64,000 nucleotides of DNA from an uncultured delta proteobacterium. GTDB lineage: Bacteria > Desulfobacterota > Binatia > Binatales > Binataceae. The translations under genes were made by a program, and so were the position numbers. The stretch lies in the NCBI GenBank assembly GCA_963810495.1, contig CAWENP010000001.1, positions 72,990-136,989 of the forward strand. The letters are read 5' to 3'. Below the pieces are notes generated by a model. It made no database searches, was not told where the DNA came from, and saw nothing but the letters and a program-made list of their open reading frames with translations. Every line of letters begins with the position of its first letter. Positions within the stretch are counted from its first letter, which is position 1. Below, piece by piece: positions 3,850 to 28,013 of the stretch.

Positions 3850-5074
3850 CGCTCAGATTTTGCTGGTCGCTTTTCCCATCGTCGTTGTGCTGTTGCCGTT
3901 CCCATAGCGCGCTGTGCCTGGATTTATCGCCGTTGTATTTGGGGCGCGCGACGGCATGACCGACGTGCCGCGAACATCCTTGGGTGCCGGCACGCGCTGT
4001 CCGCTGTCGGGACCAAGATTGCTCAGTTGTTGCGTTTGCCGACCAAAGTCCATTGCGTTGACCCAGCCGGCGCGCTTCGCTGCTATTGCCCGCGCTGCCG
4101 CTGCCGAGTTGCGCGGCCTTGTTGAATCCGGTCTGGAGCGCGCTTGTGATCGGCCGAATGACGGTTTGAGCGATAAATGCAGCTTCGAAAGCATGGCTCA
4201 GAGCGAGGCCGACTGTGCCGCCGGCAATACTGGCCGCCATGTGTACGGAACAGCAATGCTTACGATCATGAAGACAATGGCACCCGCCGTGTAGTTGAGC
4301 ATTGCCGATACCGGTATGGCTTCCCGAACAAACTGTCGTAACGATTGAGCTGGGCGGAACTCCGTAAGTGGTCCACCAAGGCAGAGTCGCGGGAATTGGT
4401 TTGCAGGCAGCGATCAACGCGGCGCTCCATTGGTTGGCCATCTGCACTCCGATCGCCAGAACGAGATAGAAGAAGAGAAGTCTGACGCCGACACGGATGA
4501 CGTAGCCGAAGTAGCCTTCTGCTGCCGGAGCCGTGAAGCGGTTTGCGCCAAAGCCCAAGCAGGATGCACTCCACCGCCCACGACCAGATAAGATTCGATC
4601 AGGGTGAGCAGCAGCATCGCCGCCGTGATCACGAATGAGAGAAGGACGACGAAGGCGGATATGCTTTGAACGATTGCGAGCTCGAAGTTCGTCATCATGC
4701 TGGCGTTTGCCGGAGAGTTGAAAATCGTGTTGGCCATGTTGGCGCCGATATGCGAGCACGGTCTGTGGACTGAGGGCGGGTAGACCGGTGATAGATGCAC
4801 CGATGGCGGAGAAGCTCTTGAGCACAGCATTCATCCACGAGAATGCGTTGACGATCATCAAGTAGACGAACCCACCGCTCAGCACTTGTTTGATGAGCCG
4901 GCCTAGGAAATGTGGTGCGTCAAGCTGACCTTCGGCGGTGAATTGAATCCAGGTTACGAGGATGTCGATCAGCAGAAGCGCGATAAAGAGCTTGAGCGCA
5001 TAGGGTTGGATGGCAGCGCTGTAATTGAGGCCTGCGTTGTAATATTGGGCTGCAATTGCATCGAAGCCGCTCAT
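3850..5074 (-). pseudogene. trbL: TrbL/VirB6 conjugal transfer protein, reading frame switches at least twice (around 4740 and 4560)
   Basis: TrbL-like N-terminus MSGFDAIAAQYYNAGLNYSAAIQPYALKLFIALLLIDILVTW in one frame; hydrophobic continuation ELAIVQSISAFVVLLSFVITAAMLLLTLIESYLVVGGG in ORF 4414..4830; the middle of the 707-aa ORF is R/H-rich out-of-frame text. Confidence 0.5.
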
Positions 5075-19546: not shown

Positions 19547-19967
19547 ATCCGACCTGTCACACAGATCATGCTCACATCGAGAAGCAGTCGCCCCGCGACG
19601 CTCAGCGGCTCGCCCAGAATGTCCGTGAAAGCCAACGTCTCAAGACAGCACGAGGATCGAGACGACGCGGCGGCTGCGTTCACGCGAACGGAAACGACTC
19701 GACCCTGTAGTTGAGACTCGGCGCGGGCGTTAAGCCGCCAGGCTGCAAGCGCCAAAGCCAATTCGGGCAAGGTGGAAGCGGCGGAAGGCGGGACGCTCTT
19801 GCTCTGCTGACTCGGGTGTTTCAACCGACGTTGGTTTATCTGTTCCGTCGGCCGCTCGGCCTGACCGACAAGCACGGAGGCCAGCAGGCATCGGTAGGCG
19901 CGAATCTTGCCCATGAATAATCTTGCGGATGATTGAATTGGTGCCCCACAAAAAAAAGCTCGGCGCC

Positions 19968-20750
19968 TTAGAACGTCCACCCGACAATCGACTTGAGAAA
20001 CACCCCGTCACTCGCGCGCGTCACTCCCAATCCGACGCCGAGATTCAGCTCGAGTTGCGGAATGAAATAGAAGTTCAGGGCCGGCACGATGAAATGCTGC
20101 TGCTCCTGCACCTTTTCCAGCGGCTGAATAGGCCCCATGTCGCCATAGTACTCAAGTGCCGGCGAAACCCAGCGGCTCAAATCATAGAGTAGCTCGCCCG
20201 ACGGCTCGAATTGAAACCCGCGATGCGTCTGCGGGCCGCTGAACGGCTTTATAAGCGGAAAGTCCGCGACCACGCGAAATGGCTTGTAGGTCGCGCCGAC
20301 GATCGGCCGCAACTCGAGCGTCAGAGGATTTTCCTCAGCCGCGCGCCGCATGTAGTCGAGCTCAATATTGCCGCCGAACTGCACCGGCCATTCGAAGGTC
20401 TGCGGAATGCCGAAGTGAACCTTCGTGCGCGAACCCGAGTATTCGTAATGTCCGTTCGAGAGCTTCGCCGTGGCGAAATACTGGCCGACCTCGAGCCAGC
20501 GCAGGACGCCATAGGTGGCCTCGAGCGTCTCGTGTATCTGATGCACATCCATCTGGCTCTTCGCCAACTCTCCGGTCGCGGTCGAGGTCGTATTGGAATG
20601 GAGTTCGAGCGTCAGATGACCGACCGGCGCGGTGTCGGTATCGTAAATCTGGATTTCGTAGAAGTCGATCGCGTGCGATGGGCGCGCGGCCGCCAGCATC
20701 GCGAGGATGCACACCGCGAGCGCGAAAACATAATGGGAAAATTTCGTCAC
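19968..20750 (-). CDS. outer-membrane beta-barrel protein of the transporter / MetA-pathway (phenol degradation)-like OMP family
   Basis: Signal peptide VTKFSHYVFALAVCILAMLAAARPSHA (GTG at 20750), alternating beta-strand pattern, C-terminal aromatic ...GWTF. Confidence 0.5.
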   Translation of the reverse strand: MTKFSHYVFALAVCILAMLAAARPSHAIDFYEIQIYDTDTAPVGHLTLELHSNTTSTATGELAKSQMDVHQIHETLEATYGVLRWLEVGQYFATAKLSNGHYEYSGSRTKVHFGIPQTFEWPVQFGGNIELDYMRRAAEENPLTLELRPIVGATYKPFRVVADFPLIKPFSGPQTHRGFQFEPSGELLYDLSRWVSPALEYYGDMGPIQPLEKVQEQQHFIVPALNFYFIPQLELNLGVGLGVTRASDGVFLKSIVGWTF

Positions 20751-21548
20751 GCGCGTCACGCAGGAAATTCTCGGCGCGATTCCTTGAATTTTGTGTCGTC
20801 GGCCGATTCCAGAACGATAGCGGACCAACCTATGTCGGCGCGTCCCCTCTCGTAAAATGGTGAGGCCGTACTCGCGCGGTTGTCAAGATATTCGGCTACG
20901 GTGATCGATCGGGAAAGTCTCAGACTTCTCGCCGCATGCGGAATTTTAAACGCGCACAAGGTGAGAGGTCGACCTGCCGGGCTCTGGCCGGCGCCTCGGT
21001 GGTCAGTGGCATCGCGACCCTGCTGGTCTGCGCGACGGGCCGGCAGACGGCGCTGGGCATGCTCGCCGCCACATTGATCGCTAAACCGCCTCCGACCGCG
21101 TTTGAAATCGGGCTGCGCGGGTTCAGCGTGCTGTTCGTGCTGACCGAGAGCCTGTGGTTTCATCGCGGCTGGCTTGAATCTCTTCTCCGCTTGCAATTGA
21201 GCCTTCGAACGAGCAGACTGCGTCGCGAGGCGTTTTGCGGAAACGCTTCTACGTGCAGCAGAAGAGGGGAGCTGCAAGATGCGCAATCGGGACCAATACC
21301 GCTGCGATCGCAAATATCCAAACGGCTTCGAATTTCGGGCTAGCGGCCTCGTGAGAGATTTCATCACCGTGCACACCTTCGGCGGGCGCGGCTCGCCCTC
21401 GTTCTAGACCTCCCGGCAAAAGAGTGGTCAGACGCTGCGATGCGTGCTGACCTTTGCGGGCCTTCGGAATTCCGTCCCCTGACGGGTGTTCTGTTGGATC
21501 GCAAAACCATAGAAATCCGACGCTAGCCGGCGGACTGGAGAGCCTTGC

Positions 21549-21635
21549 GGCTCCTCCAATCGATAGTCATCCACGGCTAGAGGACAGTCCAAGCTCTATC
21601 TACCTTAAGTGGTGGAGAGGTTGAGATCTGCCCTG
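21549..21635 (+). promoter_or_regulatory. conserved 5' leader element of DUF1111 gene copy 1 (ggctcctcca..atagtcatccacggc..gtggtggagaggttgagatctgcc)
   Basis: Shares two conserved blocks with 23313..23400 although the downstream coding regions have very different codon usage. Confidence 0.45.
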
Positions 21636-21697
21636 ACCCCCCGTCGCCGTCTGTTCAAATACAGACAAGCAGCGGGCAGATTCTAAGGAAGACAAAC

Positions 21698-23185
21698 ATG
21701 AAATATGGTATCAAGATACCAGTAGCAGTAGGACTCATCTTGCTTTTGTGTGTAGGTTCTGCTCGTTCGCAAACTCACTTTAGGAATCACACCGCCGGCT
21801 ATTCCGGAATGGGAGACCCACTTCCGGAAATAACAAACAATCCAACTGACCTGATAAACTTCGTCAATGGTCAGTTGAATATGAAAGAAATCGAGACCTT
21901 GAATCCGGCAACTAACCCCACCGGTCCAGCTGGTCAATTAGGGCCTTTATTCAATAATACATCCTGTGCAGCTTGTCATAGTAACCCTGCAATGGGAGGG
22001 GGCGGACTGAATCTATTTGAGCAACGCCTATCAACCGGAGGACCTCCAGTAAGAATCTTTGCTGTAGACAACATGCTCATGGGAGGTCCAATAATGGAGG
22101 ATACGACTGTGATCTTTCCATATGGGACAGCGGCTGCCACACTCGGTGGACAGATAGGATTGATGGATAATTCGGCCTCTACTTGTCAACAAGTTGAATT
22201 GGCGAGAGGATTTTCCTTTAAATTGCCAATTTGTATTCCAGGAACTTCTAATGATACGGGATTAACTGGAAGGCCAACTTGCATTGCTCACCGTGAGGCA
22301 TTGCCAATATTCGGAGATGGCTTGGTTGAAGCAACTGCCGATGCAACCTTTGAGCAAATCGCAGCTAGCCAGGATCCATCGATTCGCGGATCGACTCGGA
22401 TGATTGTCGAGACGAACCAGAATGGACCACCTACATCTGAAGTGTCACCAACCACTTTGGCAGCGCTAGCAGCTGCTCATGTTGGCAGATTTGGATGGAA
22501 AGATGAGCATTCTAGTCTGCTGGCTTTTGCCGGCGACGCCTATTTGAACGAAATTGGCATTACTAATGATTTGAATAAGAATCCAAACACAACTTGTGCA
22601 ATGGGTGTCACTCAGTTTGGAGTAGTCCTGCAGTCGCCTGACGACCCGGAAGATACCGTTGATTCGACCGGACGTGCAGATTTAGATCGCTTTACTGATT
22701 TCATGCGCGGATTACAGCCTCCACCCGAAGCTCCACAAACTGCTGATACCGAGGCCGGACAGCAATTATTTGAACAAATAAATTGCTCAGGTTGTCATGT
22801 CGAGTCGATTACGACTGCATCTAATCCATCTGCATTCATTCCACCGACAATCGATGGCAAGCCTCTTACTTCGACCCTTAATTCGGCGTTAACCAACGTG
22901 ACCTATCACCCATATAGCGATTTTCTGATGCACGATATGGGCAGCATGGGAGATGGAGTTAACGATAATGAATCACCTACGGATATGGGTGGACCAACTA
23001 TGATGCGTACTATGCCATTGTGGGGAATACGTGCTCGTGAAGTCTTTTTACATGATGGTCGTGCTGCCGACATAGCTACCGCGATAGTGTTGCACGACGG
23101 GCAAGGTAAGGCTGCATCGCAAGCGTTTCAGGCCTTAAGCCCTAGCGAGCAACAGCAGATTGTGGATTTTATCGAAACTCTATAA
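21698..23185 (+). CDS. di-heme cytochrome c peroxidase-like oxidoreductase (DUF1111 family), AT-rich paralog
   Basis: Signal peptide; two CxxCH motifs (CAACH, CSGCH); FGDGLVEA, GRFGWK, PLWGIRAREVFLHDGRA blocks. Confidence 0.75.
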   Translation: MKYGIKIPVAVGLILLLCVGSARSQTHFRNHTAGYSGMGDPLPEITNNPTDLINFVNGQLNMKEIETLNPATNPTGPAGQLGPLFNNTSCAACHSNPAMGGGGLNLFEQRLSTGGPPVRIFAVDNMLMGGPIMEDTTVIFPYGTAAATLGGQIGLMDNSASTCQQVELARGFSFKLPICIPGTSNDTGLTGRPTCIAHREALPIFGDGLVEATADATFEQIAASQDPSIRGSTRMIVETNQNGPPTSEVSPTTLAALAAAHVGRFGWKDEHSSLLAFAGDAYLNEIGITNDLNKNPNTTCAMGVTQFGVVLQSPDDPEDTVDSTGRADLDRFTDFMRGLQPPPEAPQTADTEAGQQLFEQINCSGCHVESITTASNPSAFIPPTIDGKPLTSTLNSALTNVTYHPYSDFLMHDMGSMGDGVNDNESPTDMGGPTMMRTMPLWGIRAREVFLHDGRAADIATAIVLHDGQGKAASQAFQALSPSEQQQIVDFIETL

Positions 23186-23312
23186 GCGCTGCGACCGTGG
23201 GTTGGGGGCATCCCACGCTAAAGCTCGGAACCCCCTTCACGCCGGAGCATCACCGTCAGACGCCGGTAGCAATCAGGTTGAAGGACCGAACATCATAGCC
23301 TGCCCCGTCTGA

Positions 23313-23400
23313 GGCTCCTCCAGTTAATAGTCATCCACGGCAAAAGCGTTCCGATCGCTACTACCACTCATACGTAGTGGAGAGGTTGGAGTCTGCCTTG
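23313..23400 (+). promoter_or_regulatory. conserved 5' leader element of DUF1111 gene copy 2
   Basis: ggctcctccagttaatagtcatccacggc ... gtagtggagaggttggagtctgcc, homologous to 21549..21635. Confidence 0.45.
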
Positions 23401-23435
23401 GGGTCGCCCTGGTGTCGATTTAATCGAACACGAAA

Positions 23436-24869
23436 TTGCAGAGAAAGAATCATATGGTTAGTCGATTGATTTTACTGTTGATCGGTATGTTGTGTATTTG
23501 GACGCAAGTCGCAAACGCGGGACCGGCCAATCGAAGAGCCAGTTCAACAACAGGAAGCCAGGCGAGCGTGCCGATAAATCTGGACGGTTTCGGTTCTCCA
23601 CTACCCGCAGTGGCGCAAAACGGATCGGATCTGACGGTCTTCGCGACCGGACAAGTGAACTTCAAGGAAGTCGAGACGCTGCCACAGGTAGGACCGATCA
23701 TGAATCGCGTATCTTGCGCGGGGTGTCATTCGCAGCCGGCGATCGGCGGCGGCGGATTGTTTATCAACGAGATCCGGGTGCGCAACAATACTCAGGCGGG
23801 TCCGGTACATATCTTCGCAGTGGACAATTTCGTGCGCAATGGGCCGCAGACCCAGGGTAACACGGCGATTTGTACGCAGGGTATCGAGGGCGAGCCGCTC
23901 GGTTGCCAAATAACCGTTCCTGGATGCTAATTATCGCCCTGTCAGCAGGAGGAGGCGGCGAAGACCACCTTTAGTACGGACCTTGGCGTCTGCGATCCGA
24001 CGAGCGTCGAATTCCACAGCGGCGGCAATTGCGTAGTGGGGCGCGCGGCGCTGGCGCTCTTCGGTGACGGCCTGATCGAAGCGGTCCCGGATCAGACCCT
24101 CGAGCAAATCGCAGAGAGCGAGCCACCTGAGATTCAGGGCACTGTGAAAATGGTGACCGAGAATTTCACCAAGGTTGCGCATGTCGGACGCTTCGGATGG
24201 AAAAATGACCACGCATTGCTGCGCGGCTTTGCCGGCGACGCCTACCTGAACGAGATGGGTATAACCAACCCTGACAACCAGGACGAAGTGAGCCAATGCG
24301 CCATCAACGAGAAGGCCTATGGGCTGGAGCTCGAGGACACGGGGGTCGAGGACACCATCGATCCGGATGGGCGCGCGGACATCGATCGTTTCTCGGACTT
24401 CATGCGCGGGCTGGCGCCGCCGCCGACCCTGCCTCAAAGCGCGTCGGCCCAAAACGGATCGAAGCTATTCACCAGCATGGGCTGCGGAGGCTGCCGTACC
24501 GAGAGCATGACCACCGCGTCAAATCCGGCATCGTTCATTCCGGCGTCCACGGGCGGCGTCTCGATCAGCCAGACGTTGAACGACACGCTCGCCAACCAGA
24601 CGTTTCATCCATATTCGGACTTTCTGCTGGACGACATGGGATCGCTCGGCGACGGCATCAGCTCGGGTGCCGCGGGACCGACCATGATGCGGACGGTGCC
24701 GCCGTGGGGCTTTCGCGCGAAGTCGCAATTCCTGCACGACGGTCGCGCGGCTGACGTCCCGACCGCAATCAAGCTGCATGACGGGCAGGGCAAGCCGGCA
24801 GCGCAGGCCTTCGAGGCGCTCAGCGCACAACAACAGTTGGACGTTGTGAATTTTCTCAATACACTGTGA
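23436..24869 (+). pseudogene. di-heme cytochrome c peroxidase-like (DUF1111) GC-rich paralog interrupted by an in-frame TAA at 23928-23930 (ORFs 23436..23930 and 24036..24869 share one frame)
   Basis: CAGCH and CGGCR(T) heme motifs; ALALFGDGLIEA, GRFGWKNDH, PPWGFRAKSQFLHDGRA; the frame is continuous apart from a single stop codon. Confidence 0.6.
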
Positions 24870-25094
24870 CGGGACGCGCAGGCGCATCGCCTGACCGGAG
24901 CGACGTCGGCGCCGAGGTTCAATAGCGAGAGTCAACCTGGCGGGCGGCGGCCGTTCAATGGCCGTCGCCCGCAGCAGAAGTCGCGCATCATGCGCTGCGG
25001 CAAAAGATTTCGCGTCAAGCCCGGACACACGGTCGAGCTCGCCGACATTGATCCCGGCTTCCAGTCCACGCTTGAAGGCGAGGCGGCGGCGTGA
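24770..25094 (+). repeat. direct repeat copy A: DUF1111 3' end + PPK2 5' end (with an extra ~85-nt intergenic piece)
   Basis: catgacgggcagggcaagccggc...gtgaattttctcaatacact and atgcgctgcggcaaaagatttcgcgtcaagcccggacac... recur at 26735..26955. Confidence 0.6.
24990..25094 (+). pseudogene. polyphosphate kinase 2 N-terminal fragment (34 codons, MRCGKRFRVKPGHTVELADIDPGFQSTLEGEAAA*)
   Basis: Near-identical to the start of the intact PPK2 at 26851 (MRYSNRFRVTPGHKVKLADIDPGFHSTHEDEAAA...). Confidence 0.5.
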
Positions 25095-25157
25095 ACTACG
25101 AGTTTTCGATCATCCCGAAGCTTCTTCATGCGCTTTGGAGAAAAATGGAGGTCTGCG

Positions 25158-25598
25158 ATGCGTGAACTCAAGCTTGACGAAGTGCGCAGGATGCTCGAGG
25201 CATCCGGACGCGAGGCCCAGCGATGCGGTAAGCCCAGCACCACGGCGGTCGTCGATTTCGGCGGCCATCTGCGGGGAATGGAGCGGCCCGAAGGCGGCCG
25301 GATCGCCAACGTCGATATCGCAATCAAAAAGGCGTGGACGGCGATCGCGTTCAAGCGACCTACCGCGATGGTGCGAGCGGTGATGATGCCCGAGGCGATG
25401 GGTTACGGATTGCAGCATACCGATGCGCGCATCTGCATGGTCGCCGGTGGTCTGCCGATCGTGGAAAACGGCGAATTCCTGGGCGCCGTCGGCGTCAGCG
25501 GCGGCACCATCGACGAGGACATCACCTGCTGCCTCGAGGCGCTCAAGGCGTGCAACTTTGCCACAGAATTCGCCGATCCGCTGAAGGCCGCCAGATAG
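25158..25598 (+). CDS. GlcG/HbpS-like heme-binding protein (DUF336 family)
   Basis: MRELKLDEVRRMLEASGREAQRCGKPSTTAVVDFGGHL...GGLPIVENGEFLGAVGVSGGTIDED; RBS ggag 8 nt upstream of the ATG at 25158. Confidence 0.65.
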   Translation: MRELKLDEVRRMLEASGREAQRCGKPSTTAVVDFGGHLRGMERPEGGRIANVDIAIKKAWTAIAFKRPTAMVRAVMMPEAMGYGLQHTDARICMVAGGLPIVENGEFLGAVGVSGGTIDEDITCCLEALKACNFATEFADPLKAAR

Positions 25599-25732
25599 GA
25601 AGCCCCGGATTCCCACTCATGCGGAACCCGAGACAGACTAAGCCAGGATCGGTCCGAAGCAATAGCAAGCGCCTAACGAAAATGACCACATCAAGCTAAA
25701 AAGAGCAGGCTGAAGCCACTGGCCAGGAGAGT

Positions 25733-26101
25733 TTAGTGGTGGCCACCCCCTCCATGGCCACCTCCTGCATGTCCACCAGAGCCGCCCGTATGCCCACCGG
25801 AGCCCCCACTACGGGCAAAGGAATGCCCACCACCCGCTGAGGAATGGTAGAAGCTCTCACTGTGGCCGGGGCCATGATGCTCCTCCCAGGAATGATGCAC
25901 GGCGAAGTTCGGTGAGTAGCCACGGGCATATATCGGCCAGCCATAGGAGTAGGGCGAGTAGCCGTAGCCCGGATAGCCGTAGGTAGGGCCGTAGTCGGGG
26001 CCCACGCATCCACCCAGCCCACACAGCGAACTCAGTATCAAGATGATTTGGATTAAGCGCAGCACGGCTAAAAATACCTCCCGGTAACATGCGTCTGCCA
26101 T
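25733..26101 (-). CDS. small secreted/lipoprotein-like Gly/Tyr/His-rich protein with a His-rich C-terminal tail (putative metal-binding)
   Basis: Hydrophobic N-terminus ...ILILSSLCGLGGC (lipobox-like), YGYPGYGYSPYSYGW repeats, C-terminus GGHTGGSGGHAGGGHGGGGHH. Confidence 0.4.
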   Translation of the reverse strand: MADACYREVFLAVLRLIQIILILSSLCGLGGCVGPDYGPTYGYPGYGYSPYSYGWPIYARGYSPNFAVHHSWEEHHGPGHSESFYHSSAGGGHSFARSGGSGGHTGGSGGHAGGGHGGGGHH

Positions 26102-26110
26102 GCGCTTCGC

Positions 26111-26611
26111 TTAGGGAGCACCCCAAGCCGGTTTGCCGTCGGGATGGTAGAAGGCCAGGCCGGGAGTCTCAGCGGCAGGAACATCAAGGCTGGTGCGCAA
26201 CTTGCCGCTTGGATCGTAAAGCCCCAGGCCTGGTGTTCCCACCGGTCCCAGCGCGAGCGTCGCACGCATCCTGCCGCTCTCGTCATAGAGATCGACCCCG
26301 GGTGATCCATTGGCGGCAAGATCAATCGTGATCCGCGTCTGGCCCTTGGCGTCGTTTAGGTTGATCCCCACCGCGCCATTGTCCCCGATACCCATCGCAC
26401 CTCTTACTTTGCCGTCGCTGCCGCGCAGCACAAACTGCTCGGCCTCAAGGCTCTGGGTCGGCGCCGTTTGGCCCATAAGGACCGCCGCACCCGTCAACAG
26501 TACTAGAGCGCCGGTCACCAGCCGCAGCCGCCGATTGGCGCGTCGAAGCTCGGCCTGTTGATCCTCCAGCCGCGCCATCCGTTCGATCAATTCGCCTGTG
26601 GGTTGTTCCAT
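26111..26611 (-). CDS. membrane-anchored protein with N-terminal coiled coil and degenerate G..G(L/I)..D..GK.R..L repeats
   Basis: LEDQQAELRRANRRL, TM segment LVTGALVLLTGAAVLMG, three repeat units (GINLNDAKGQTRITI / GVDLYDESGRMRATL / GLGLYDPSGKLRTSL). Confidence 0.4.
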   Translation of the reverse strand: MEQPTGELIERMARLEDQQAELRRANRRLRLVTGALVLLTGAAVLMGQTAPTQSLEAEQFVLRGSDGKVRGAMGIGDNGAVGINLNDAKGQTRITIDLAANGSPGVDLYDESGRMRATLALGPVGTPGLGLYDPSGKLRTSLDVPAAETPGLAFYHPDGKPAWGAP

Positions 26612-26734
26612 GTCACTTTTCTCATCAGGTCATTGAGATCATTTTCATAAGTTCGGAAGGACCGACTAACTAGTTCATCTTACCAAATGTGTGGGCAAAG
26701 CCGCCAACTGCCCGTGCGGGCGACAGCGCTCGCG

Positions 26735-26955
26735 CGGCATGACGGGCAGGGCAAGCCGGCTGCGCAGGCCTTCAGCGCGCCAAGCGCGCAACAACGGTTG
26801 GAGGTTGTGAATTTTCCCAATACACTTTGCCGCAGCGGAAGTCTCGCATCATGCGCTACAGCAACAGATTTCGCGTCACGCCCGGACACAAGGTCAAGCT
26901 CGCCGATATTGATCCCGGCTTTCACTCCACGCATGAAGACGAGGCGGCGGCCAAG
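26735..26955 (+). repeat. direct repeat copy B: DUF1111 3' end fragment (pseudogene piece) fused to the PPK2 5' end
   Basis: Aligns with 24770..24868 and 24975..25090; translation HDGQGKPAAQAF..SAQQ.L.VVNF.NTL matches the copy 2 C-terminus. Confidence 0.6.
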
Positions 26956-27696
26956 GGTGAGATCGTGACGAACCTCGAGAAGCTGCGCGCCTTGCAGTAT
27001 TTGATGTATGCCGAGAACAAGCGATCGCTCCTGGTCTGCCTGCAAGCGATGGATGCCGGCGGCAAGGACGGCACTATCGAGCACGTCATGGGCGCGATGA
27101 ACCCGCAGGGCTGCCGGGTGCAGGCGTTCAAGACGCCTTCCGCCGAAGAGGCCGCTCATGATTTCCTGTGGCGCGTACACAAGGCCGTCGGGGGCAAGGG
27201 AACGGTGACCGTTTTCAACCGATCACATTACGAGGACGTGCTGGTCGTGCGAGTGCATAAGCTGGTTCCGAAAGAGGTATGGTCCCGGCGCTACGATCTT
27301 ATCAACGACTTCGAAAAAGAGCTGACTGACGGCGGCACGCATATCCTCAAATTCTTTCTGCACATCAGCAAGGAGGAGCAGCTCGCTCGATTCAAGGACC
27401 GGCTCAACGATCCGACCAAGCAATGGAAGATCAGTGAGAGTGACTACCGGGAACGCGAGTTCTGGGATGACTACATGAAAGCCTATGAGGACGTCTTGCG
27501 AGAGTGCAGCACCGACGATGCGCCCTGGTTCATCATTCCGTCCAACCACAAGTGGTTCCGCAATCTTGCGGTTTCACAGATCCTCGTGGAGCATCTCGAG
27601 GCTTTGAAAATGGAATTCCCCAAGCCCACGGCCGATCTCAAACAGATCGAACGCCGGTATCACCGCGCGGAAAGGGAAGCGCACAAGCGCCGGTAA
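26851..27696 (+). CDS. ppk2: polyphosphate kinase 2 (PPK2 family polyphosphate:nucleotide phosphotransferase)
   Basis: LLVCLQAMDAGGKDGTI (Walker A-like), VFNRSHYEDVLVVRVH, FLHISKEEQLARFKDR, PWFIIPSNHKWFRNLAVSQIL. Confidence 0.8.
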   Translation: MRYSNRFRVTPGHKVKLADIDPGFHSTHEDEAAAKGEIVTNLEKLRALQYLMYAENKRSLLVCLQAMDAGGKDGTIEHVMGAMNPQGCRVQAFKTPSAEEAAHDFLWRVHKAVGGKGTVTVFNRSHYEDVLVVRVHKLVPKEVWSRRYDLINDFEKELTDGGTHILKFFLHISKEEQLARFKDRLNDPTKQWKISESDYREREFWDDYMKAYEDVLRECSTDDAPWFIIPSNHKWFRNLAVSQILVEHLEALKMEFPKPTADLKQIERRYHRAEREAHKRR

Positions 27697-28013
27697 AAAC
27701 TGGCCCAACGTTGGACGCTTCGCGCGCGGCGGTTACCGCTCGGGCTCGCTGAAACTGTCCGGCGTCAGCCTGAGCGGATTTGCGGCAGGATTTCATCGAA
27801 CTTGGCAGCGGAATTCAGAGACTTGGGGGTCATATCAGCGCAGCGCGACGTTGCGGTTCAGCGACGGCGGTTACGTAGGCGATCCCACCGTGCAAGGCTA
27901 GGCCCGAAATAGCAGTTCTATGCGTCACGAGACGCTGTTGGCACGTCTCGTGCCTAAGAAGGTTCCTATTTGGGCATTTTCGACGTCAGCAGGGAAGTAA
28001 GGACGGTTCGAGC

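What the first reader, a model, noticed from the sequence alone, without database searches (positions are those of the whole stretch)
21481..24869. Tandem DUF1111 di-heme peroxidase paralogs with divergent codon usage but a conserved structured 5' leader
Copy 1 (AT-rich) and copy 2 (GC-rich) encode clearly homologous two-CxxCH proteins. Their coding DNA has diverged to very different base composition, yet ~90 nt upstream of each start retains near-identical blocks: GGCTCCTCCA-(4-5 nt)-ATAGTCATCCACGGC, a ~30-nt variable spacer, then GT(G/A)GTGGAGAGGTTG(A/G)(G/A)(A/T)TCTGCC. The CUCCUCCA and UGGAGAGG segments are partly complementary and could form a stem. Sequence conserved where the coding DNA is not implies selection on a cis-element, i.e. 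a candidate regulatory RNA or operator. ATAGTCAT loosely resembles half of a Fur-type box, and DUF1111 genes are iron-regulated in some bacteria.
Basis: seen in the sequence. Interest (0 to 1): 0.75.

Follow-up and report, generated by a model that had tools for sequence, protein, structure and literature searches.

The report
Duplicated leader RNA domain flanking inserted gene
The two near-identical upstream elements are real, but they are two copies of one domain of a longer, previously undescribed structured mRNA leader that follows a conserved 42-codon mini-gene. The domain was duplicated when a foreign AT-rich di-haem gene recombined into the leader of the resident gene, which has since decayed into a pseudogene.

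Summary
Elements at 21549-21632 and 23313-23397 share four identical blocks separated by unrelated spacers.

1. Copy 2 is a pseudogene. It has an in-frame TAA, a haem His changed to Arg, and other hits at invariant residues.
2. Sister strains (L020, L021) carry only the GC-rich gene behind one leader. The AT-rich gene plus its 3' flank (about 21578-23312) is an insertion whose ends lie inside the leader. This leaves a direct repeat of the distal leader domain, as in a Campbell-type integration.
3. The element does recur, in diverged form, in about 15 distinct metagenomic leaders. It always lies about 110 nt downstream of a conserved small ORF ending HTFGGRGSP(S)F*, within a roughly 290-nt leader whose helices show compensatory changes.
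4. Block A instead pairs with an upstream UGGAG.
5. There is no Fur box. Nothing in Rfam reaches its threshold; the only similarity is a weak 20-bit match to DUF1874 RNA.

The best reading is a cis-acting leader RNA domain that works together with a small ORF resembling an arrest peptide. The signal it responds to is unknown. It is a new member of a known kind and moderately interesting.

The parts
21191..21219 (+). Sigma-70-like promoter of the leader transcript: TTGCAA (21191-96), 17-nt spacer, CAGACT (21214-19).
   Evidence: The two hexamers and their spacing are conserved in L020, L022, L013 (CATAAT), L001 and L012 (TATATG/TATATC). Activity is inferred. The tool's own promoter scan did not list it.
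21279..21407 (+). Small ORF of 42 codons: MRNRDQYRCDRKYPNGFEFRASGLVRDFITVHTFGGRGSPSF*. It is preceded by the SD GGGGAG (within 21264-71).
   Evidence: The C-terminal HTFGGRGSP is invariant in more than 30 loci. The Pro and Ser codons vary at the third position. The N-terminal part varies freely, but frame and length are kept.
21426..21512 (+). Proximal leader domain. It comprises hairpin H1 (21426-52), the long-range helix UUGC/GCAA, and a nested CGGAA..UUCUG / CCGUC..GACGG hairpin (21465-93).
   Evidence: RNAalifold and pair counts give 93% of cells paired, 7 pairs with compensatory change, and 0/500 shuffles reaching the observed covariation score. In the window this patch resembles type-1 leaders (L034, 78-88%) more than the sister strain L020 (62-70%).
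21518..21633 (+). Distal leader domain, copy 1; this contains the finding's motif 1 at 21549-21632. P1 pairs 21534-44 (ACUGGAGAGCC) with block A (21549-58). The junction is AUCGAUAGUCAUCCACGGC. P3 pairs GUCCAA with UUGAGA. The P4 hairpin is UCUACC/GGUGGA.
   Evidence: (103.9 bits). Positions 21513-21577 are 95-100% identical to L020. The spacer 21578-21611 is of a different (L026/L050-like) type.
21625..21697 (+). Leader tail: helix AUCUGCCC (21625-32) / GGGCAGAU (21674-81), then SD UAAGGAAG (21684-91).
   Evidence: The helix appears in the MFE and centroid folds of the whole leader (z = -4.1). The same CUGCC..GGCAG arrangement is seen in L013, L026 and L050. Function is inferred.
21698..23185 (+). 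Copy 1: an intact DUF1111/DHOR di-haem protein of 495 aa, with a signal peptide and the motifs CAACH and CSGCH. GC is 47% and GC3 is 0.39. It is absent from the sister strain.
23186..23312 (+). Donor-derived 3' flank of copy 1. It includes the hairpin at 23196-23217. Positions 23260-23312 are a diverged leader-like segment (ACGCCGG..GGUUGAAGGACC). Strain L062 diverges from the window at 23259/60.
   Evidence: The flank is homologous to the 3' flanks of the type-1 genes in L034 and L013, up to GTCTGAGGC. It has no counterpart in L020. The covariance model hit starts at 23261.
23313..23397 (+). Distal leader domain, copy 2; this is the finding's motif 2. It is the resident leader's own copy, now cut off from the promoter, the small ORF and the native 5' strand of P1.
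   Evidence: L020 4744-9447 matches window 23309-27999 at 97% identity. The spacer is identical in type to L020's. The covariance model scores it at 90.2 bits.
23454..24869 (+). Copy 2: a pseudogene of the resident type-2 DUF1111 gene. It has TAA at 23928-30 and the haem His changed to Arg at 24495-97.
   Evidence: The intact ortholog P0074 is 96% identical. The same split gene (158 + 277 aa) is called in L063.
24942..24970 (+). Terminator-like hairpin GGGCGGCGGCC GUUCAAU GGCCGUCGCCC downstream of copy 2.
   Evidence: The same hairpin follows the solo type-1 genes in L013 and L034. This indicates that type-1 and type-2 genes occupy one orthologous slot.

Best explanation
The element is the distal domain (about 115 nt, helices P1, P3 and P4) of a structured mRNA leader of about 290 nt. 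The leader is transcribed from a promoter at about 21191-21219. It begins with a 42-codon small ORF whose C-terminus HTFGGRGSP(S)F is invariant, and it ends at the ribosome-binding site of a secreted DUF1111 di-haem oxidoreductase.

The element occurs twice in this window because an AT-rich foreign type-1 DUF1111 gene, carried with a homologous leader, recombined into the resident leader. A single crossover within blocks A/B, of the Campbell type, would explain the pattern. The left copy consists of a resident 5' part followed by a donor 3' part. The right copy consists of a donor 5' part followed by a resident 3' part. The resident type-2 gene, now without promoter or small ORF, then became a pseudogene.

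The mechanism is inferred and not shown. I propose that the small ORF acts as a regulatory leader peptide, with TnaC-like or arrest-peptide-like stalling at RGSP. In this model the downstream RNA domains, including this one, convert ribosome position and/or an unknown ligand or protein into transcription read-through or translation of the DUF1111 gene. The conserved unpaired stretch AUAGUCAUCCACGG and the GGAG-rich strands are the likely contact surfaces.
For: Insertion and duplication:
- The sister strains L020 and L021 have small ORF, one leader, an intact type-2 gene and the HbpS-like gene, with no copy 1.
- L020 4744-4821 matches both window motifs. The window segment from about 21623 to 23308 has no counterpart in L020.
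- The identity profile is a mosaic: 100% to L020 at 21177-21431, 95-100% at 21513-21577, and foreign elsewhere.
- The 3' flank of copy 1 is homologous to type-1 flanks.
- Copy 1 has GC3 0.39, against 0.61-0.77 for copy 2.
- Copy 2 is damaged at invariant sites.
- L063 shows the same arrangement as the window, and L062 shows a third one.
- A second insertion in the same locus is also flanked by a direct repeat.

Functional RNA:
- The motif is found in 18 distinct leader sequences (22 hits) by the covariance model, and only twice in the window.
- For P1/P3/P4 on a MAFFT alignment, 84% of cells pair, against 27-49% when the 3' partners are slid. Nine pairs show double changes. Nineteen cells show compensatory change, reached by 1 of 500 shuffles.
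- On the model-fitted alignment, 14 pairs show double changes and 0/500 shuffles reach the observed values.
- The proximal domain is 93% paired, with 0/500 shuffles reaching the covariation score.
- The whole leader folds with z = -4.1.
- G-U pairs are frequent on the + strand.

Small ORF.
Against: - No expression data exist for this uncultured lineage (Binatia). The promoter, translation of the small ORF and ribosome stalling are all inferred.
- The covariation rests on only 15-18 related sequences. The tool warns that related sequences can exceed the shuffles without any structure being present.
- The motif alone does not fold better than shuffled sequence.
- The closest solo type-1 leaders (L013, L034) lack block B and the inner hairpins and score only 25-28 bits. 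The domain is therefore dispensable for at least some DUF1111 genes.
- The foreign patch at 21432-21512 is not explained by a single crossover.
- The direction of the event is inferred from composition and pseudogenisation. An insertion here is favoured over a deletion in L020, but neither is proven.
Confidence: 0.6

Rival explanations
1. Two functional paralogs each keep their own regulatory leader. The element folds through the stem CUCCUCCA/UGGAGAGG, or it is a Fur/PerR-type operator responding to iron.
For: The blocks are identical while the coding DNA has diverged. Block A and block C can pair in 74% of cells. Two family members align weakly to Rfam DUF1874, whose outer stem corresponds to this pairing.
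Against: Copy 2 is a pseudogene. Motif 2 owes its sequence to recent shared ancestry with L020. The stem shows 0 compensatory changes and is no better than shuffles. The best Fur-box match is 10/19, which equals background. The element lies about 350 nt downstream of the promoter.
Confidence: 0.07
2. The element is a DNA recombination site that folds as single-stranded DNA, like an unusual attC as suspected for the DUF1874 motif. Under this view it catalyses cassette-like insertion or exchange of DUF1111 genes, which is why it flanks the inserted gene.
For: The two copies bracket the foreign gene exactly. Type-1 and type-2 genes occupy the same slot, with shared 5' and 3' flanks. There is a weak match to RF02953, a motif noted for occurring in consecutive intergenic regions. 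Three arrangements of the locus exist among close strains.
Against: No integrase or recombinase is called within about 5 kb in L020, L021 or L062; only IS21 IstB lies farther away in L062. There are no RYYYAAC / GTTRRRY core sites (sequence). The Rfam score is 20 bits against a gathering score of 42. In about 15 other loci the element is single and keeps a fixed position in a leader. The mosaic of junctions fits homologous recombination. A second insertion in the locus is flanked by a repeat of ordinary coding DNA, not of this motif.
Confidence: 0.07
3. The blocks carry no function. Their identity within the window reflects recent duplication and gene conversion between the two copies, and the wider similarity reflects common descent of neutral leader DNA.
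For: Blocks A and B of motif 1 are resident-type, so they are a true recent duplicate of motif 2. Across the family the blocks do vary; for example, L044, L057, L026 and L060 differ in block B. The solo type-1 leaders lack most of the domain.
Against: The element persists in leaders whose proteins are only 70-85% identical and whose spacers are unalignable. The pattern of change is compensatory in three helices. The positions of the indels respect the helices.
Confidence: 0.12
4. The element is a protein-binding or sRNA-binding site on the mRNA, for example for a translational repressor, rather than a ligand-sensing or ribosome-coupled switch.
For: A long conserved unpaired stretch (AUAGUCAUCCACGG) and GGAG-rich strands are typical of a binding surface. 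No alternative terminator or anti-terminator pairing is conserved.
Against: No candidate partner is encoded nearby. This cannot be separated from the main model with sequence data alone.
Confidence: 0.14

Closest known systems
tnaC-tnaA leader (TnaC nascent-peptide stalling with Rho-dependent attenuation) and other arrest-peptide leaders (SecM, MifM, SpeFL). This comparison comes from my own knowledge.
   Same: A short upstream ORF in which only the C-terminal residues are conserved, including Arg-x-x-Pro near the stop. A long untranslated spacer (about 290 nt here, about 220 nt in tna) lies before the regulated gene. A C-rich, conserved stretch lies immediately after the stop codon.
   Different: There is no sequence similarity. 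The spacer here is highly structured, with covarying helices. The small ORF has no signal peptide or transmembrane segment, so force-sensing of the SecM/MifM type is unlikely. Stalling, Rho dependence and an effector are all untested.
Rfam RF02953, DUF1874 RNA (Weinberg et al. 2017, PMC5737381).
   Same: A multi-stem element with a conserved internal loop. The family consensus CAUCCAaGGuAAG compares with CAUCCACGGCAAAAG here. It is usually found in 5' UTRs and is noted for occurring in consecutive intergenic regions.
   Different: The score is only 20 bits (E of 1 to 9) against a gathering score of 42, for two of the sequences tested. The helices that model imposes are largely mismatched here, and its outer stem has no covariation support. 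The consecutive occurrence here has a specific recombinational explanation.
Orphan riboswitch-like leader motifs found by comparative genomics.
   Same: A conserved structured 5' leader with covarying helices and conserved junction nucleotides, tied to a particular gene family.
   Different: It is coupled to a conserved translated small ORF. The distal domain is modular: it is present with type-2 genes and reduced with solo type-1 genes. No ligand can be guessed from a di-haem oxidoreductase of unknown function.
Campbell-type (single-crossover) or homology-facilitated integration of foreign DNA, followed by in situ displacement of the resident gene.
   Same: The foreign cargo is bracketed by a direct repeat of the homologous segment. 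Each repeat copy is a reciprocal resident/donor hybrid. The displaced resident gene has decayed.
   Different: The homologous segment is very short (blocks of 10-15 nt within about 115 nt of diverged leader). An extra foreign patch at 21432-21512 implies more than one recombination tract.

Membership tests
Pfam PF06537 DHOR (DUF1111 di-haem oxidoreductase) | The profile match is above the gathering score, and two CxxCH haem motifs are present. | tested here: met
   Copy 1 scores 115.8 bits against a cutoff of 22 and has CAACH and CSGCH. The C-terminal part of copy 2 scores 85.4 bits, but its second motif reads CGGCR and the frame holds a TAA, so it is a member only as a pseudogene.
Rfam RF02953 DUF1874 RNA | The covariance-model score is at or above the gathering score of 42 bits. 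| tested here: not met
   Window motif 2 scores 20.1 bits (E = 1) and L049 scores 20.0 bits (E = 8.9). Motif 1 and the other members give no hit.
Any Rfam 15 family | A hit at the gathering threshold anywhere in the 64-kb window. | tested here: not met
   There were 0 hits.
Fur/PerR/Zur operator | A match to the 19-bp Fur consensus GATAATGATAATCATTATC that is better than background, located near a promoter. | tested here: not met
   The best match in both leaders is 10/19. Random 600-nt windows give 10-11 as a rule. The site is about 350 nt downstream of the promoter.
Integron attC site | Core sites RYYYAAC ... GTTRRRY, an imperfect palindrome, and a nearby tyrosine-recombinase integrase. | tested here: not met
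   There is no RYYYAAC in or next to the element. GTTGAGA and GTTGGAG fail at the last position (sequence). No integrase is called in the flanks of L020, L021, L022 or L023.
Structured cis-regulatory leader RNA (riboswitch-like) | It recurs upstream of homologous genes with compensatory base-pair changes, in a fixed orientation. | tested here: met
   Searches give the covariation. One search shows 18 distinct instances, all on the gene strand. The support is moderate because there are few sequences.
Structured cis-regulatory leader RNA (riboswitch-like) | Ligand- or signal-dependent switching between alternative structures. | not testable with these tools
   Block A can pair with either the upstream UGGAGAGCC or the downstream UGGAGAGG. 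Only the former pairing covaries.
Regulatory leader/arrest peptide (TnaC-like) | A conserved short ORF with its own SD, whose C-terminal residues are under peptide-level selection. | tested here: met
   HTFGGRGSP is invariant, and the Ser and Pro codons vary at the third position. The N-terminal part varies equally at all three codon positions (1144/1171/1215). The 42-codon length is kept in 12 of 14 distinct ORFs.
Regulatory leader/arrest peptide (TnaC-like) | Ribosome stalling at the motif, with an effect on downstream expression. | not testable with these tools
   This needs toeprinting or reporter assays.

The most novel reading that the evidence does not exclude
The small ORF ending HTFGGRGSP, together with its 290-nt multi-domain leader, is a new two-component sensor. 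In this reading a nascent-peptide arrest motif is coupled to an aptamer-like RNA domain (the element of this finding). The sensor would control secreted di-haem oxidoreductases and other exported proteins across the uncultured phylum Binatia. The conserved AUAGUCAUCCACGG junction would bind a small molecule such as a haem-, metal- or oxidant-related signal.
Probability: 0.25. Interest if true: 0.75.

Novelty: new member of a known kind. Interest (0 to 1): 0.55.

Why it matters
If the model is right, it gives a first regulatory handle on DUF1111/DHOR di-haem proteins, whose physiological role is still unclear. It does so in Binatia, a widespread soil phylum with no cultured members. It would add a new leader-peptide family and a new structured RNA to the catalogue; neither is in Rfam or in the searched literature.

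The locus is also a clean natural example of in situ gene displacement. A foreign homolog enters through homology in a regulatory leader, takes over the promoter and leader, and the resident gene decays.

There is a practical lesson as well. A sequence conserved upstream of two tandem paralogs can be the scar of integration and need not reflect independent selection, so sister-strain comparison is needed before inferring function.

Tried and rejected
- Rfam at gathering threshold on the whole window gave nothing.
- Permissive Rfam scans gave only the 20-bit DUF1874 match plus noise.
- Folding the motif alone, on either strand, was not better than shuffles.
- A scan of 185,579 species genomes for TCATCCACGG-N20-50-GTGGAGAGGTTG gave 5 hits. 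All lie in coding DNA or lack the other blocks, so they are chance matches.
- The upstream regions of six copy-1 orthologs (64-82% identical), and of P0057 (a type-2 ortholog, 51% identical to copy 1), show no full motif. Only L013, with L034 found later, carries a truncated version. This first looked like a refutation, until the copy-2 orthologs were examined.
- The Fur box was rejected.
- Coding potential of the motif was rejected. The 34 vs 35 nt spacers shift the frame, and L022 has a stop in the only shared frame.
- The promoter/terminator scan gave no convincing site inside the motif.
- A search for homologs of the small ORF in the protein database returned only 6 entries, because such short genes are rarely called.
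- Literature searches for FGGRGSP and for DUF1111 together with leader gave 0 papers.
- A conserved helix that sequesters the SD in the leader tail was not found for the type-2 leaders. Only a weak GAGGU/GCCUU hairpin appeared.


Full report
**1. What is in the sequence**

Copy 1 (21698-23185, + strand) is an intact 495-aa DUF1111/DHOR protein with a signal peptide and two CxxCH motifs. Copy 2 (23454-24869) lies in one reading frame throughout, but it carries several defects. It has an in-frame TAA at 23928-30. Its second haem motif reads CGGCR instead of CxxCH. It also has LDDMG in place of LHDMG and PPWG in place of PLWG, all at positions that are invariant in intact orthologs up to 96% identical. 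Copy 2 is therefore a pseudogene.

The two proteins are 48% identical. Copy 1 has 47% GC and GC3 of 0.39. Copy 2 has 56-62% GC, in a window that averages 62%.

The spacers between them are unrelated and measure 34 and 35 nt. Folded alone, neither copy is more stable than shuffled sequence. The window has no Rfam hit at threshold.

**2. Why there are two copies**

The closest orthologs of copy 1 (64-82% identical) lack the full motif. Copy 2, in contrast, has intact orthologs at 96% identity in sister strains (L020, L021). There the locus reads: two unknown genes on the minus strand, a small ORF, one leader with one motif, the type-2 gene, and an HbpS-like gene. There is no copy 1.

BLAST of L020 against the window gives two collinear blocks: L020 2969-4821 matches window 19800-21622, and L020 4744-9447 matches window 23309-27999. 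The 78 nt of L020 that hold the motif therefore match both window copies, and roughly 21623-23308 has no counterpart in L020.

A column-by-column comparison shows a mosaic:
- The window is 100% identical to L020 from 21177 to 21431. This covers the promoter, the small ORF and the first 25 nt after it.
- It is foreign and type-1-like from 21432 to 21512.
- It is again 95-100% identical from 21513 to 21577, which covers P1 and blocks A and B.
- It is foreign from 21578 onward.

Downstream of copy 1, positions 23186-23312 are homologous to the 3' flanks of solo type-1 genes (L034, L013) as far as GTCTGAGGC. The last 50 nt of that stretch also look like a diverged 5' part of the leader domain. Consistent with this, a covariance model of the domain aligns end to end at 23261-23398.

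The left copy therefore has a resident 5' part and a donor 3' part. The right copy has a donor 5' part and a resident 3' part. These reciprocal hybrids are what a single crossover within blocks A/B, between the chromosome and a circular donor fragment, would produce (Campbell-type integration). The extra foreign patch at 21432-21512 shows that more than one tract was involved.

Several observations point to acquisition here followed by decay of the displaced gene, rather than to loss of copy 1 in L020. The composition of copy 1 is foreign. Copy 2 has decayed. The single type-2 arrangement is present in many lineages (L022, L023, L025, L026 and others).

Other strains confirm and extend the picture. 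L063 has the same tandem arrangement with the same split pseudogene. L062 carries copy 1 but diverges from the window at 23259/60 into unrelated DNA near an IS21 gene.

A second event of the same style lies 1.5 kb downstream. The 3' end of the DUF1111 gene plus the start of the PPK2 gene (24753-25089) is repeated at 26720-26950, around the HbpS-like cargo.

**3. What the element is**

A metagenome scan with the DNA of the conserved small-ORF end returned 38 loci. In about 15 distinct leaders the motif recurs in diverged form. It always lies about 110 nt downstream of the small ORF stop and 55-70 nt upstream of the start codon. Most of these leaders precede type-2 DUF1111 genes; one (L060) precedes a different secreted protein. 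Solo type-1 leaders have a short version without block B and the inner hairpins (L013, L034), or none at all (L001, L012, L008). Across 292 kb of collected DNA, the covariance model finds only these instances, and exactly two of them are in the window.

The helices I derived by eye are:
- P1: the upstream UGGAG(AGCC) pairs with block A (GGCU)CUCCA.
- P3: YUCCNA in the "variable" spacer pairs with UNGGAG in the 3' part of block C.
- P4: the hairpin CCACU/AGUGG, nested within P3.

I tested them on an unbiased MAFFT alignment. There, 84% of cells pair, against 27-49% when the 3' partners are slid. Nine pairs show changes on both sides. Nineteen cells are compensatory, a value reached by 1 of 500 shuffles. 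The model-fitted alignment gives 14 such pairs, and 0 of 500 shuffles reach the observed values; that alignment leans toward the structure.

The proximal half of the leader is also supported. It comprises hairpin H1, a UUGC/GCAA long-range helix and a nested hairpin. Here 93% of cells pair, 7 pairs are compensatory, and 0 of 500 shuffles reach the covariation score. The whole 305-nt leader of copy 1 folds with z = -4.1 and reproduces H1, the long-range helix, P1, P4 and a terminal CUGCCC/GGGCAG helix. Abundant G-U pairs indicate an RNA of the + strand.

The best Fur-consensus match is 10/19, which is background level.

**4. The small ORF**

The ORF at 21279-21407 encodes MRNRDQYRCDRKYPNGFEFRASGLVRDFITVHTFGGRGSPSF. 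Across more than 30 loci the C-terminal HTFGGRGSP is invariant, with the Ser and Pro codons varying at the third position. The stop codon follows 0-2 codons later in most loci. The N-terminal two thirds vary equally at all three codon positions, yet frame and length are maintained. The ORF has an SD and a conserved promoter upstream.

This is the profile of a regulatory leader peptide whose last residues act inside the ribosome. The resemblance to TnaC or SecM-type R-x-x-P arrest motifs comes from my own knowledge and is not a tested membership. I found no literature on it.

**5. How it most likely works**

The following points are shown by the data:
- The repeat arose by recombination.
- The leader is a conserved, structured + strand RNA.
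- The small ORF is conserved at the peptide level.
- Copy 2 is a pseudogene.

The following points are inferred:
- One transcript runs from about 21225 through the small ORF and leader into the DUF1111 gene.
- Translation, and perhaps stalling, at the end of the small ORF, together with the folding of the downstream domains, sets read-through or translation initiation.
- The distal domain is an accessory sensor or binding module. It is found mainly with type-2 genes and was captured by the incoming type-1 gene in this strain.

The signal is unknown. Neighbouring genes (HbpS-like here; multicopper oxidase and CopB in L012) hint at haem, metal or oxidant stress.

**6. Comparison and novelty**

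The nearest named RNA is Rfam DUF1874. It shares a CAUCCA-GG-AAG loop and, interestingly, a habit of appearing in consecutive intergenic regions. However, the score is 20 bits against a required 42, and the helices that model imposes are not supported here, so the element is not a member. It is not an attC site: there are no core sites and no integrase nearby.

Functionally it belongs with leader-peptide and structured-leader regulators, as an undescribed family. I rate it a new member of a known kind, with interest 0.55. The strong claim in the original finding, independent conservation in front of two working paralogs, does not hold. Even so, following it led to a real, apparently new leader system and a neat case of gene displacement.

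Noticed in passing
window 21279-21407 (+); also L001, L008, L012, L013, L020-L026, L029-L035, L037-L040, L042-L060: A conserved 42-codon small ORF ends in the invariant HTFGGRGSP(S/L)(F/L)*. It lies upstream of DUF1111 type-1 and type-2 genes and of unrelated secreted proteins (beta-helix-like proteins, an HTH protein). Its N-terminal part is free to vary. It is absent from the searched literature. It is a candidate regulatory or arrest peptide.
   Followed up: partly
window 24753-25089 and 26720-26950: A second direct repeat (83-89% identical) exists in the same locus. The 3' end of the DUF1111 gene plus the first ~100 nt of the PPK2 gene is duplicated around the HbpS-like gene (25128-25598) and its neighbours. 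This leaves a truncated PPK2 start after copy 2 and a relic DUF1111 C-terminus (..HDGQGKPAAQAF..VVNF.NTL) fused in front of the intact PPK2 gene. It is the same integration signature as the leader duplication.
   Followed up: partly
L062 from position 5063 onward (corresponds to window 23259/23260): In another strain from sample ERZ25039509, the identical copy 1 is followed after 74 nt by unrelated DNA and an IS21 IstB gene instead of motif 2 and copy 2. This is a third arrangement of the locus. The same sample also holds the arrangement with a single type-2 gene (L021).
   Followed up: partly
window 21698-23185: Copy 1 has GC3 of 0.39 in a genome with GC3 of about 0.75. Its nearest relatives show a gradient: L034 0.51, L013 0.53, L001 0.73. 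The donor lineage and the reason for this drift toward AT are unknown.
   Followed up: partly
window 24942-24970; L013 and L034 3' flanks: The same terminator-like hairpin GGGCGGCGGCC..GGCCGUCGCCC follows the type-2 gene here and the solo type-1 genes elsewhere. Type-1 and type-2 DUF1111 genes therefore appear to be alternative occupants of one slot with shared 5' and 3' flanks.
   Followed up: partly
window 21432-21512: An 80-nt patch of the leader (H1 and the nested hairpin) is only 62-70% identical to the sister strain, although it is flanked by stretches of 100% identity. It resembles type-1 leaders (L034, 78-88%). A single crossover does not explain this extra recombination tract.
   Followed up: no
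window 19968-21376 (-): Two adjacent minus-strand ORFs (about 263-286 and 202-212 aa) lie just upstream of the leader promoter. They have no Pfam match and are conserved in L020, L021, L062 and L063. Their function is unknown.
   Followed up: no
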